This document shows, piece after piece, positions 10,671-14,800 of a stretch of DNA of 64,000 nucleotides (positions are counted from its first letter, which is position 1; each line of letters begins with the position of its first letter). The notes under the pieces are model-generated. The model did no database searches. It was not told where the DNA came from and saw only the letters and a list, made by a program, of their open reading frames with translations. The stretch is taken from the NCBI RefSeq assembly GCF_009914755.1, contig NC_060934.1. The stretch is one strand, 5' to 3'. The position numbers and the translations under genes are program-made. This DNA is from the human T2T-CHM13v2.0 reference genome, Homo sapiens.

Positions 10671-10852
10671 GCCCTCCCTGCTTCGGACTCCGCCCTCCCT
10701 GCTTCGGACTCCGCCCTCCCTGCTTCGGACTCCGCCCTCCCTGCTCTGGACTCCGCCCTCCCTGCTTCGGACTCCGCCCTCCCTGCTTCGGACTCGGCCC
10801 TCCCTGCTCTGGACTCCGCCCTCCCTGCTTCTGACTCCACCCTTTCTGCTTC
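10671..10852. repeat. 21-bp minisatellite, ~8.5 copies (gccctccctgcttcggactcc)
   Basis: Read directly from the sequence; produces the ALPASDS repeat ORF. Confidence 0.95.
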
Positions 10853-11044
10853 GGTATCTACCTCCTTGCTTTGGAAGGACACAACCTTCTTGGCTGGCAC
10901 AGCCCTTCCTGCCATGCCTGTTGATCCCATCATCAGCCAAGGATGTGTTGGGGCCGTATTCTGCGGCTCCTCCAGCATGGGAAGGTGCTGACAGGAAGCA
11001 GCACCAACACCTCCTGGAATAGCCGTTGGCACATGAGCTTCCTG

Positions 11045-11238: not shown

Positions 11239-11480
11239 CTGCTCTGCTCTCAGAAGGGGACAGCGCAGGAAAGGCCAGCTTCAGCCAGGGTGACGGTGGG
11301 GGTGGTGCTCAGGGTGGACAGCATTGATTAGAGGTGACTGTTGTCCAATATTCAGCTAAACTGTAGGTTTTAAAGCTTGAGGACAGGTTTCGTTAGAGGT
11401 CAAAATTCAGTAGTTCCTTTCCCAAGGATGTAGGGAGAGAACTACGTTTTGTTAAGTGGCTCTTATTGAGCATTGTGACA

Positions 11481-11641
11481 TTCTTTTGCTAAAAACATGT
11501 TTGTGCATGTATACACTTGTACTAAGAAAATATCTTCATTTTATTTCCTTTTCCTTTATCATGTGACATAAGATTTATTCACTTCATATCAGCATTTAAG
11601 TATTGTCAACTTTATGAAATAATATTTGGGTTGGCGATTGG
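11481..11641 (+). mobile_element. HERV-L internal 3' (post-dUTPase) fragment, inverted relative to the adjacent pol remnant
   Basis: ttcttttgctaaaaacatgtttgtgcatgtatacacttgtactaagaaaatatcttcattttatttcc...catgtgacataagatttatt matches the HERVL-int 3' region as I recall it. Confidence 0.75.
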
Positions 11642-12042
11642 TTTTGAAATGTGAGGACAGGAGATCTGGGAGGGGTCGGGATGGAATAATATGGTTTGGC
11701 TGCGTCCCCACCCAAATCTCATCTTGAATTCCCACATGTTATGGGAGGGACCCTGCGGGAGGCAAGGGGATCATGGGGGCAGGTCTTTCCCATGGTGTTC
11801 TCATGGTGGTGGGTGGGTCTCATGAGATCTGATGGTTTTACAAAGAGGAGTTTCCCTGCACAAGCTCTTTCTTTGCCTGCTTCCATCCATATAAGATGTG
11901 ACTTGCTCCTCCTTGCCTTCTGCCATGATTGTGAGGCCTTACCAGCCATGTGGAACTGTAAGTCCATATTAAACCTCTTTCTTTTGTAAATTCCTCAGTC
12001 TCGGGTATGTATTTATCAGCAGTGTGAAAACAAACTAATACA
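11636..12042 (+). mobile_element. THE1-int 3' end (PPT) plus complete THE1A-type MaLR LTR (11687-12042)
   Basis: gattggttttgaaatgtgaggac...gggaggggtc, then taatatggtttggctgcgtccccacccaaatctcatcttgaattcccac...attaaacctctt...cagcagtgtgaaaacaaactaataca (356 bp). Confidence 0.9.
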
Positions 12043-12150
12043 AGGTCTTTCCTAAGTTTGGAAAAACGTGATTTCTCATCTCTTCAAAAACGACTTCCAC
12101 TCCCCCTCTGCATTCCCTCTAGGTTCCAGTTACATGTGCGTTGGACCCCA
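12043..12150 (-). mobile_element. Short L1M ORF1 fragment, inverted; its continuation is at 14411 on +
   Basis: Reverse complement ggtccaacgcacatgtaactggaacctagag...tttgaagagatgagaaatcacgtttttccaaacttaggaaagacct resembles L1M ORF1. Confidence 0.6.
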
Positions 12151-12176
12151 CGCCTTCCACGCCCCACCCCACTCCC

Positions 12177-14410
12177 CTGGTATTGATGACTGCCTTCTTC
12201 TACTGTCCATTCTGTATTCCCTTTGCCTTCAGCATCACCTCAGCGGGTCGTGGTTTTTTTCCTGGTGGAATGTCCCAAACCTTCATTCCTGAGGGGTCTG
12301 GGTCACTTGTAGTCTTGCCTGGATTGGGCTGTTGTAGTTTCCCGTTGACCTTAATCACAAGGCATGGTAATACTATGGGACGCCCTAATGGATCTCCTGT
12401 ATTCCATGTATACTCTTCCTTAGCTTCGTTGCAGAGTAGTAGACTGATTTCACCTTGATAGACCAGATCAATCACCCCAACAGTGTAACTCCTTTCTTAG
12501 CCTATTGACATAAAGGTAGGAGGAGCCCAGAGTATCCAGGTGACAATCTTAACTTCCAGTTCAGTGGGATTGCTGTTTGGTCTCGCGGTGGCAGCATTCT
12601 TCCCTCTGGAACTAATAACGCTAGGCCAGCAGAACGTAATGTTGCAGGAACAGGAAGCAAAACTTTTGCTAGTGGATCATTAGGGGTGATGGTGAGTGGT
12701 GCCACTTCCACTTCCACCCTTGATTCCCGGACCCGTGAATCCTGGCTATGGGAGAAACAGTATCATATATTGGACGCTGATTCAGAGCATCCATGGCCCT
12801 CTGGAGAACTTTGCCCCAGCCCTGCAAAGTATTGCCACCTAGTTGGTGTTGTAATTGTGACTTCAAAAGGCCATTCCACCATTCTGTCAACCCAGCTGCT
12901 TCAGGATGATGGGGAACATGGTAAGACCAGTGAATTCCATGAGCATGAGCCCCCTGCCACACTTCTTTAGCCATAAAGTGAGTGCCTTGGTCAGAGGCAA
13001 TGCTGTGTGGAACACCATGATGGTGGACAAGGCATTCTGTGAGTCCATGGATGGTAGTCTTCACAGAAGCATTGCATGCAGGATAGGCAAACCCATATCT
13101 AAAGTAAGTGTCTATTCCAGTGAGGACAAACCTCTGCCCTTCCCATGATGGAAGAGGTCCAATATAATCAACCTGCCACCAGGTAGCTGGCTGACCACTC
13201 CAAGGAATGGTGCCATATCAAGGACTCAGTGTTGGTCTCTGCTGCTGGCAAATTGGGCACTCAGCAGTGGCCGTAGCCAGATCAGCCTTGGTGAGCGGAA
13301 GCTCATGTTGCCGAGCCCATGGGTACCCTCCATTCCTGCCATCATGGCCACTTTGTTCATGGGCCTATTGGACAATGACAGGGGTGGCTTGGGAAAGAGG
13401 CTGAATGGTATCCACAGAAGGGGTCATCCTGTCCACTTGATTATTTAAATGCTCCTCTGCTGAGGTCACCCATTGGTGAGCACTCACATGCGATACAAAT
13501 ATCTTCACAAATTTTGACCACTCAGAGAGGTCTGTCCACATACCTCTTCCCCAGATTTCTTTGTCACAATTTTCCAATCATGCTTCTTCCAAGTCCCTGA
13601 CCATCCAGCCAAACCATTGGCTACGGCCCATGAATCAGTATATAATCACACATCTGGCCATTTCTCCTTCCAAGCAGAGTGCACAAGCGGGTGCACTGCT
13701 TGAAGTTCTGCCCACTGGGAAGATTTCCCTTCACCGCTGTCCTTCAGGAATGTCCTAGAAAGGGGCTGTCATGCTACAGCTGTCCACTTTCGGGTGGTGC
13801 CTGCATACCGTGCAGAACCATCTGTGAACCAGGCCCCGGTCTTCTCTTCCTCTGTCAGCTGATCATAGGGAACTTCCCATGAGGCCATCGGTGCAGGCTG
13901 GGGGAGAGAAGGGAGGGTGGCGGGAGTGGAGACCATGGGCATTTGAGCCACGTCGTCATGTAACTTACTTGTGCCTTCAGGACTTAATCAAGCCCAATCA
14001 CATACATGCCACTTCCATTTGATGATGGAATGCTGCTGTGCATGACCCACTTCATGGCTAGATGGGTCAGAAAGCACCCAGTTCATGACATGCAGTTCAG
14101 GTCACACGGTGACTTGATGACCCATAGACAAACGTTCAGTTTCCACCAAAGCCCAGTAACAGGCCAAGAGCTGTCTCTCAAAAGGAGAGTAGTTACCTGC
14201 AGAAGATGGCAGGGCCTCACTCCAAAATCCTAGAGGCCTCCGCTGTGATTCACCTATGGGGACCTGCCAAAGGCTCCAAACAGCATCCTTATCTGCCACT
14301 GACACCTCAAGCACCATTGGATCTGCTGGGTCATATGGCCCAAGTGTCAGAGCAGCTGGCACAGCAGCCTGGACCTGTTGCAGAGCCTACTCCTCTTCTG
14401 GACCCCCTCA
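12177..14410 (-). mobile_element. HERV-L internal remnant: RT connection/RNase H, integrase and dUTPase-like region; many stops and frameshifts
   Basis: ORF fragments LGPYDPADPMVLEVSVAD...RPLGFWS, WFTDGSARYAG, HVSAHQ, IASDQGTHF...WSYHVPHHPEAAGL-E-WNGLLK and IPLNWKLRL. Confidence 0.92.
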
Positions 14411-14800
14411 GTCCTCCATACCCAAAGTCCAGAAAGTTGGGAATCCCAGTGAATCCCTAGCAGCATCAAAAAAATAAAAACTCATACCCAGTCAGATTAT
14501 AACAAATCAAGAAAACCATAGAGAGCATAGGGGTGTGCCGCAGTCACACTGACAGGCCACCTTCCTGTTCCTGCAGAAATGGTAACCGCAGGGGACGGTG
14601 CAGCCGCATCTTCCGTGTCCTTGGAGGAAATGTCAGCATAGGGTCTTACCCGGCAAAACATCTCCTAAGATTGAAGGTGAAATAGACATTTTAACTCAAA
14701 TGAAAAACAGTAAGTACTAACGGATGTTCTTCAAGCGGAGAGAAAATGATCTCATATGAAGTCAGAGAGGAGAAAGGAATGAGACTCAAGGCAGTTGGGG
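14411..14800 (+). mobile_element. Old L1M ORF1 3' part
   Basis: cagtgaatccctagcagcatcaaaaaaataaaaactcatacccag...gaaggtgaaatagacattt...gatgttcttcaagcggagagaaaatgat. Confidence 0.65.

What the first reader, a model, noticed from the sequence alone, without database searches (positions are those of the whole stretch)
11481..14415. Apparent HERV-L / THE1A recombinant provirus with one 5-bp TSD, later broken by a ~700-bp inversion
Seen in the sequence: an HERV-L 3' internal fragment (11481-11641, +) runs directly into the THE1 polypurine tract and a full THE1A LTR (11687-12042, +). The junction sits on a shared gattggt (11636-11642). The HERV-L pol-dUTPase body (12177-14410) lies on the - strand and stops at ...catcaataccag, just upstream of where the + fragment starts in the consensus as I recall it. 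An L1M ORF1 piece at 12043-12150 (-) continues at 14411 (+). Flipping 11481-12176 restores one colinear element: TG...HERV-L pol - HERV-L 3' region - THE1 PPT - THE1A LTR...CA. It sits antisense in an L1M and is flanked by aggac (revcomp of 14411-15) and aggtc (12043-47), a 4/5 match to the 5-bp TSD typical of ERVL/MaLR. Established: MaLRs such as THE1 lack pol and are thought to have been mobilised by ERV-L. Inference: this is a fossil of template switching between co-packaged HERV-L and THE1 RNAs, i.e. physical evidence of the helper relationship.
Basis: partly seen in the sequence, partly recalled or inferred. Interest (0 to 1): 0.8.

Follow-up and report, generated by a model that had tools for sequence, protein, structure and literature searches.

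The report
Inverted HERV-L/THE1 chimeric retroelement insertion
An intron of human INPP5A holds a broken, partly flipped fossil in which the tail of a HERV-L retrovirus is fused to the end of a THE1 element, probably because the two RNAs were copied together before insertion.

Summary
12177-14410 (-) is HERV-L pol: RT-connection, RNase H, integrase, weak dUTPase. 11481-11642 (+) is the HERV-L non-coding stretch that, in 9 of 9 other genomic copies, starts 57-60 nt after the point where the pol piece ends. One copy was therefore split by an inversion. The + piece joins a THE1 internal tail (11643-11686) and a THE1-type LTR (11687-12042) at a shared heptamer, GATTGGT. This junction was found nowhere else in the genome (0 of 39 other scored matches).

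The LTR end and the pol 5' end abut two halves of an old L1 ORF1 remnant. The flank carries 5 extra nt (GACCT/GTCCT), consistent with a 5-bp target-site duplication.

Corrections: it is not a provirus, since the 5' LTR, gag, pro and RT are missing. The THE1 subfamily was not tested. The left flank could not be shown to continue the L1.

Best reading (about 0.5): one 5'-truncated chimeric cDNA, made by reverse-transcriptase template switching between co-packaged HERV-L and THE1 RNAs, inserted once. A 696-bp inversion followed.

Not excluded: the alternative flip (12043-14410, a captured autointegration circle) and DNA-level rearrangement. Primate orthologues would decide.

The parts
11481..11642 (+). 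HERV-L internal 3' non-coding fragment (segment B). The start is uncertain by 1-13 nt, because weak HERV-L likeness may reach back to about 11468.
   Evidence: 92-95% identity to 39 of 39 other scored copies. In 9 of 9 fetched copies it lies 57-60 nt downstream of the end of the pol-dUTPase match.
11636..11642 (+). Heptamer GATTGGT shared by HERV-L-int and THE1-int. This is the crossover point.
   Evidence: alignment of 9 HERV-L and 11 THE1 copies with the window. THE1 homology begins at 11626-11642.
11643..11686 (+). Last 44 nt of the THE1 internal region, including the purine-rich tract in front of the LTR.
   Evidence: colinear with 11 of 11 THE1 copies.
11687..12042 (+). THE1-type LTR, 356 bp. 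It starts TA (TG in the other copies) and ends CA. Subfamily not tested.
   Evidence: 79-87% identity to 11 of 11 fetched copies. The alignments end at 12040-12043.
12043..12047 (.). Putative target-site duplication, copy 1 (aggtc, which is GACCT in L1 sense).
12043..12176 (-). L1 ORF1 remnant (segment D). It covers the start of the RNA-binding domain, through the FPNL motif. 12151-12176 is unassigned.
   Evidence: the translation aligns to ORF1p P0208 residues 47-81, and 0 of 300 shuffles reach the score; profile positions 116-135.
12177..14410 (-). HERV-L pol 3' part (segment E): RT-connection, RNase H, integrase core and dUTPase. It is frameshifted and carries many stop codons.
   Evidence: Pfam; 84-90% identity to 9 copies; the 5' limit of homology is at 14405-14410 in 4 of 4 copies.
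14411..14415 (.). Putative target-site duplication, copy 2 (gtcct; 4 of 5 matches to GACCT).
14411..14750 (+). Continuation of the L1 ORF1 remnant (segment F). It also contains the annotated alternative INPP5A exon 14577-14676.
   Evidence: Weak support: nhmmer E=0.68 at 14608-14687; profile positions 220-244; 34 of 300 shuffles reach the score. The register with segment D is shown.
11480..11481 (.). Left inversion breakpoint, where single-copy flank meets HERV-L.
12176..12177 (.). Right inversion breakpoint, where the L1 remnant meets the HERV-L dUTPase end.

Best explanation
A single extrachromosomal DNA molecule was inserted, antisense, into an old L1 ORF1 remnant in an INPP5A intron. The molecule consisted of the 3' 2.4 kb of HERV-L (RT-connection to about 126 nt before its own LTR) fused to the last 44 nt of THE1-int plus a complete THE1-type LTR. 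The insertion duplicated 5 bp of target.

The fusion most likely arose during minus-strand DNA synthesis inside a HERV-L particle that had packaged both a THE1 and a HERV-L RNA. Synthesis copied the THE1 LTR and 44 nt of THE1-int. It then jumped to the HERV-L RNA at the heptamer GATTGGT and continued through dUTPase, integrase and RNase H. It ended, or was cut, in the RT-connection region, leaving a 5'-truncated product whose left end begins TG.

Later, or possibly in the same aberrant event, the 696 bp from 11481 to 12176 were inverted, with loss of about 45-59 nt of HERV-L. That stretch holds the HERV-L tail, the THE1 tail and LTR, and 134 bp of L1 flank.

Shown: the parts, their orientations, the near-contiguity of HERV-L coordinates, the microhomology, and the uniqueness of the junction.

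Inferred: a single insertion, reverse-transcriptase template switching, co-packaging, and the order of events.
For: - HERV-L coordinates are near-contiguous across opposite strands in 9 of 9 reference copies, with a 57-60 nt gap.
- The flanks of the two outer ends (12043 onwards on the - strand; 14411 onwards on the + strand) read as consecutive parts of L1 ORF1. The spacing between the FPNL motif and the following [IV]Q is 7 residues in 17 of 21 diverse ORF1 proteins and never more. The window has 21+5 nt there, and the surplus coincides with GACCT/GTCCT.
- The LTR ends exactly at its terminal CA against this flank.
- The junction sits on a 7-nt identity shared by both families, near the 3' end of both internal regions: 44 nt before the THE1 LTR and about 126-128 nt before the HERV-L LTR. 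That is where an early minus-strand switch would fall.
- No MLT2-type LTR and no second THE1 LTR lies between the parts.
- The junction 81-mer is unique: 0 of 39 other scored matches span it, with 40 scored of 119 candidates.
- The HERV-L pieces are as diverged from other copies as those copies are from each other. For the tail piece the figures are 94.1% against 94.5%; for the dUTPase end, 86.8% against 88.4%.
- Partial and rearranged MERV-L and MaLR insertions are documented as new mouse mutations (PMC6466679, section 14 read).
Against: - The element lacks a 5' LTR, so concerted integrase action on two LTR ends cannot have produced the duplication. The duplication is only 4 of 5.
- L1 identity of the flank at 14411 onwards is statistically weak.
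- The left flank (up to 11480) could not be shown to continue the L1. It weakly resembles a different part of ORF1 (11 of 300 shuffles reach the score).
- In 4 of 4 HERV-L copies the sequence upstream of the 5' truncation point is not purine-rich and shares no microhomology with the flank, so no mechanism for that end is evident.
- Only one such junction exists, so no replicating chimeric lineage is shown.
- A 7-nt microhomology fits DNA-level MMEJ or MMBIR as well as template switching.
Confidence: 0.5

Rival explanations
1. DNA-level origin. Independent THE1 and HERV-L insertions lay in or beside the L1. They were later joined and trimmed by deletions, or by one complex microhomology-mediated replicative rearrangement (MMBIR/FoSTeS type). 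That rearrangement also produced the inversion. The GATTGGT junction is then a repair junction, not a reverse-transcription crossover.
For: - A 7-nt microhomology, an inversion and a small loss at a breakpoint are typical of such rearrangements.
- The junction is unique in the genome.
- The 5' end in pol has no retroviral explanation.
- The 'duplication' is imperfect.
Against: - A deletion would have to start exactly at the first base of a 5' LTR, or the rearrangement would have to end exactly at the LTR's terminal CA. At the same time the L1 flank would have to stay colinear with a 5-nt surplus.
- No remnant of an MLT2 LTR, a second THE1 LTR or more THE1-int is left.
Confidence: 0.25
2. Alternative flip history. 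The inverted segment is 12043-14410 (L1 piece plus pol), not 11481-12176. Before inversion the order was HERV-L tail, THE1 tail and LTR, HERV-L pol, then intact L1. That is a circularly permuted element, as expected if an autointegration 'deletion circle' was opened about 50 nt after the dUTPase end and captured beside the L1. In such a circle the 3' LTR's CA end is joined to an internal pol site. The 5-nt duplication would then come from a staggered break at the L1 breakpoint.
For: - Flipping 12043-14410 also makes the two L1 pieces contiguous. It places the rc-GACCT and GTCCT copies exactly where a staggered-break inversion would put them (geometry).
- It joins the LTR's CA end to the TG start of the pol piece.
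- Deletion circles carrying one LTR plus the cDNA up to an internal autointegration site are known for LTR retrotransposons (PMC7197481, passages read).
Against: - An inversion breakpoint would have to fall exactly on the last base of the LTR, which is a coincidence.
- It needs three rare events: circle capture, loss of about 50 nt, and an inversion.
- It still requires the HERV-L/THE1 fusion to have existed in cDNA.
Confidence: 0.1
3. The chimera was made at the DNA level at another locus, for example by THE1 and HERV-L nesting followed by deletion. It was transcribed there, and this site holds a retro-copy. The source has since been lost.
For: The single-insertion evidence does not say where the fusion arose.
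Against: - No second copy of the junction exists in this genome (also 39 of 39 other HERV-L matches stop at the junction).
- It adds an unseen locus.
Confidence: 0.08

Closest known systems
Recombinant or mosaic HERVs, such as HARLEQUIN and HERVS/HERVL32/HERVL66 with class I env
   Same: Two retroelement lineages are joined colinearly in one element. This is attributed to recombination after cross-packaging (PMC4724089, passages read; PMC5753468, passages read).
   Different: Those are multi-copy lineages with two LTRs, formed between autonomous ERVs. This is a single, 5'-truncated, one-LTR copy joining an autonomous ERV-L to its presumed non-autonomous dependant. Vargiu et al. judged most MaLR-on-HERV mosaics to be secondary insertions or software artefacts. 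Their table has no chr10 entry near my estimate of this locus's hg19 position (the estimate is my own).
Partial, rearranged MERV-L/MaLR insertions causing mouse mutations (Npc1 m1N; Fgf5 go-moja)
   Same: Class III elements inserted as partial, internally rearranged pieces rather than as complete LTR-int-LTR units (PMC6466679, Table 4 passages and section 14 read).
   Different: Those cases come with genomic deletions. Here the target appears intact with a 5-bp surplus, and the element is a two-family chimera.
Autointegration deletion and inversion circles of LTR retroelements (Ty1, SISYPHUS)
   Same: [quoted passage not shown]
   Different: Those are extrachromosomal dead-end products. Here the DNA is chromosomal, and the inverted block includes 134 bp of host flank.
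L1 twin-priming 5' inversions
   Same: 5' truncation together with an inversion.
   Different: There is no poly(A), and the LTR runs to its terminal CA. The order of direct and inverted pieces is the reverse of the twin-priming order, and host flank is inverted too. The twin-priming layout is recalled, not tested.

Membership tests
HERV-L (ERV-L, class III) | pol with RNase H and integrase, followed by a C-terminal dUTPase | tested here: met
   RT_RNaseH_2 1.6e-10, RNase_H 1.4e-10, rve 1.2e-12, and dUTPase 8.9e-4 (19.5 bits, below the cut-off of 22), in that order on the - strand. The dUTPase at the pol C-terminus of HERVL is stated in PMC4724089.
HERV-L (ERV-L, class III) | DNA homology to the multi-copy genomic family across both pieces | tested here: met
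   84-95% identity to 9 fetched loci, plus upstream extensions of 4 of them. At least 1401 candidate copies.
HERV-L (ERV-L, class III) | Own (MLT2-type) LTRs at both ends, plus PBS and gag-pro-RT | tested here: not met
   Homology starts in the RT-connection region. It stops about 126 nt before the point where the HERV-L LTR begins in L002 and L010. No HERV-L LTR is present.
THE1 / MaLR | LTR of about 350 bp with TG...CA ends, preceded by the THE1-int tail | tested here: met
   colinear with 11 of 11 genomic copies from 44 nt before the LTR to its last base. The first dinucleotide here is TA.
THE1 / MaLR | Subfamily THE1A | not testable with these tools
   No Dfam or Repbase consensus is available.
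Integrase-made class III insertion | 5-bp target-site duplication flanking both ends | tested here: inconclusive
   GACCT against GTCCT is a 4-of-5 match. A 5-nt surplus relative to ORF1p spacing holds against 17 of 21 proteins. However, the left end is not an LTR end.
Retroviral template-switch recombinant | Parents joined colinearly at shared sequence, with no LTR in between, inside one insertion | tested here: met
Retroviral template-switch recombinant | Recombinant propagated, meaning further copies carry the same junction | tested here: not met
   0 of 39 other scored matches span the junction; 39 of 39 stop at it.
L1 (ORF1) as host of the insertion | Both flanks are consecutive ORF1 sequence | tested here: inconclusive
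   The flank at 12047-12148 is significant (0 of 300 shuffles). The flank at 14411 onwards is weak. Pfam finds nothing. No DNA match to 20 younger L1 copies. The genome holds no other copy of these flanks.

The most novel reading that the evidence does not exclude
This locus is a physical fossil of a HERV-L particle that had packaged a THE1 (MaLR) RNA beside its own genome. Reverse transcription began on the THE1 3' end and jumped to the HERV-L RNA. The aborted one-LTR cDNA was still inserted with a class-III-type 5-bp duplication. That would be direct sequence evidence for the long-assumed helper/parasite link between ERV-L and MaLRs. It would also show that integrase can place a cDNA that has only one LTR end.
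Probability: 0.45. Interest if true: 0.65.

Novelty: new variant of a known kind. Interest (0 to 1): 0.5.

Why it matters
MaLRs such as THE1, MST and MLT1 form a very large non-autonomous class III group that keeps only small traces of retroviral homology (PMC6466679). They encode no polymerase. That they were mobilised by ERV-L is assumed from sequence relatedness, not shown.

A chimeric cDNA that begins on THE1 and continues on HERV-L, inserted as one piece, would place both RNAs in the same particle. It also suggests a concrete genome-wide screen: HERV-L-int running directly into MaLR LTRs inside one target duplication.

My literature searches returned no paper whose title, listed abstract or read passages describe a HERV-L/THE1 chimera. 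That covers only the open-access library searched.

For INPP5A itself nothing functional is implied.

Tried and rejected
- Pfam on the L1-like flanks, read with X at stops, found no L1 family.
- A profile built from 21 diverse L1 ORF1 proteins placed the two flanks at the right positions, but with E-values of only 0.23 and 4.6.
- L1 subfamily could not be named. blastn of the flanks against 20 L1 loci and against L024 gave nothing usable at the junction. An nhmmer profile of 22 L1 loci gave only E=0.68.
- Direct alignment to the L1HS ORF1 protein and DNA was uninformative.
- The search for homologous proteins returned only near-identical primate ORF1p, which was useless for a profile. The clustered library gave the diverse set instead.
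- Genome DNA searches with the three flank pieces found only themselves, plus one 61-nt L1 hit. No second copy of this old L1 could therefore serve as a ruler.
- Internal polypurine priming as the cause of the 5' end is rejected. The sequence upstream in 4 of 4 copies is not purine-rich.
- Extended HERV-L/THE1-int homology around the junction is rejected. There are no hits apart from unrelated repeats in the loci flanks.
- A different age for the two HERV-L pieces is rejected.
- L1 twin priming is rejected: there is no poly(A), the piece order is wrong, and host flank is inverted too.
- A THE1 solo LTR with its own duplication is rejected. The internal tail is present, and tggaa (11682-86) does not match aggtc.
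- Vargiu et al.'s 'MaLR chain with MuERVL-like Pol' (rvnr 5922) is a chr1 HERVL32 element, not this locus.
Full report
**What is there.** The stretch 11481-14415 lies in an intron of INPP5A (hub annotation). I divided it into six segments:
- A: up to 11480
- B: 11481-11642
- C: 11643-12042
- D: 12043-12176
- E: 12177-14410
- F: 14411 onwards

**Segment E is HERV-L pol.** On the minus strand, read with X at stops, Pfam finds RT_RNaseH_2, RNase_H, the integrase core (rve) and a sub-threshold dUTPase, in that order. The matches are spread over three frames with many stops. E is 84-90% identical to nine HERV-L copies fetched from the same genome. A dUTPase at the pol C-terminus is the HERV-L hallmark (PMC4724089, passages read).

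**Segment B is HERV-L too, on the other strand.** B matches 39 of 39 other scored genomic hits at 92-95% identity, with 40 scored of 1401 candidates. Every one of these matches stops at the same point, query position 160-163, which is window 11640-11643. In 9 of 9 fetched copies the E-type match ends at ...catcaataccag, and the B-type match starts 57-60 nt further on. B and E are therefore neighbouring parts of one HERV-L copy lying on opposite strands. About 45-59 nt are missing between them. The lower figure applies if the weak likeness at 11468-11480 is real.

B is more similar to other copies than E is, but the other copies show the same pattern among themselves. B is 94.1% identical to the window's counterparts against 94.5% among the others. 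The last 360 nt of E are 86.8% against 88.4%. The two pieces therefore need not differ in age.

**The junction with THE1.** From 11626-11642 up to 12040-12043 the window is colinear with 11 of 11 fetched copies of a second, very abundant family, at 79-87% identity. This covers 44 nt of internal tail, including the purine-rich tract, and then a 356-bp LTR at 11687-12042. The LTR begins TA, where the other copies have TG, and ends CA.

The alignment of 9 HERV-L copies, 11 THE1 copies and the window shows the crossover on GATTGGT at 11636-11642. The heptamer is present in 8 of 9 HERV-L copies. It is exact in 3 of 11 THE1 copies, and the other 8 differ by 1-4 mismatches. There is no wider homology between the two families here.

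In HERV-L the heptamer lies about 126-128 nt before the element's own 3' LTR. In THE1 it lies 44 nt before the LTR. An 81-mer centred on the junction is unique in the genome: 0 of 39 other scored matches span it, with 40 scored of 119 candidates.

**The flanks.** The reverse complement of D translates to a sequence that aligns with L1 ORF1p (P0208 residues 47-81, through the NFP.L motif). None of 300 shuffles reached the observed score. F continues in the register expected for ORF1, but its likeness is weak: 34 of 300 shuffles reach the score, and nhmmer gives E=0.68 at 14608-14687. Pfam sees nothing.

In 17 of 21 diverse ORF1 proteins there are exactly 7 residues between FPNL and the next [IV]Q, and never more. 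The window has 26 nt there, which is 21+5. The surplus coincides with GACCT (the end of D, in L1 sense) and GTCCT (the start of F). D and F therefore look like the two sides of one target site with a 5-nt duplication.

Segment A is single-copy. It could not be shown to continue the L1 upstream of D. If anything it weakly resembles the C-terminal domain of ORF1 (11 of 300 shuffles; nhmmer E=2.7). This does not contradict the inversion, but it removes one hoped-for independent confirmation.

**The 5' end.** HERV-L homology begins at 14405-14410 in 4 of 4 copies, in the RT-connection region. There is no 5' LTR, gag, pro or RT, so 'provirus' is the wrong word. Upstream of this point the other copies are not purine-rich and share nothing with the flank. 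I therefore have no mechanism for why the cDNA ended there.

**History.** Flipping 11481-12176 on paper, by coordinates only since I did not build the sequence, gives the following order: L1(+) / THE1 LTR(-) / THE1 tail(-) / HERV-L tail(-) / [about 50 nt lost] / HERV-L pol(-) / L1(+). That is one colinear chimeric element, antisense in the L1, bounded by the LTR's CA on one side, by TG on the other, and by the 5-nt duplication.

The two outer ends share one target site, so the HERV-L/THE1 fusion must already have existed in the DNA that was inserted. The simplest source is a reverse-transcriptase jump early in minus-strand synthesis between two co-packaged RNAs.

Recombination after cross-packaging is the accepted source of mosaic HERVs (PMC4724089; PMC5753468). 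Partial, rearranged MERV-L and MaLR insertions are known as fresh mouse mutations (PMC6466679). The inversion could therefore even belong to the insertion event.

**Rivals.** A second flip, of 12043-14410, also restores the L1. It puts the two 5-mers exactly where a staggered-break inversion would leave them. The ancestral state would then be a circularly permuted element (tail-LTR-pol), such as a captured autointegration deletion circle (PMC7197481). Its weakness is that an inversion breakpoint must fall exactly on the last base of the LTR.

A purely DNA-level history is also possible: nested insertions followed by deletions, or one microhomology-mediated complex rearrangement. It explains the 7-nt microhomology equally well. 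It needs a deletion or breakpoint to coincide with an LTR terminus while leaving the L1 colinear.

A chimeric source locus elsewhere cannot be excluded, but none exists in this genome.

**Verdict.** It still rests on a single, old, imperfect locus and cannot be settled without orthologues, which these tools do not hold.

My literature searches returned no paper whose title, listed abstract or read passages describe a HERV-L/THE1 chimera. Subscription journals and unread supplements may hold one.

Noticed in passing
window 14577-14676: The annotated alternative INPP5A exon lies wholly inside the L1 ORF1 remnant. It has a pyrimidine tract plus AG in front (14560-14576) and GT behind (14677-78), so it is an exonised L1 fragment next to the HERV-L piece.
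   Followed up: partly
window 12643-12657 and 14561-14575: A perfect 15-nt inverted repeat. One arm lies in the HERV-L integrase/dUTPase region and the other on the pyrimidine tract and AG of that alternative exon. By my rough estimate about 0.01 such pairs are expected by chance in 4.2 kb. Its meaning is unknown.
   Followed up: no
window 10671-10854: A 21-bp minisatellite with 8.8 copies at 90% match, about 630 bp upstream of the chimeric element. It accounts for the long repetitive ORFs. PMC6466679 notes that MaLRs are associated with minisatellite formation, but no link was tested here.
   Followed up: no
window 12177-12537: This HERV-L copy keeps more CpG than the nine compared copies over the same 360 nt: 5 against 0-2.
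   Followed up: no
window 11300-11420: The single-copy left flank weakly resembles the C-terminal domain of L1 ORF1. It may be a second, separate, very old L1 fragment rather than the upstream part of the interrupted one.
   Followed up: partly
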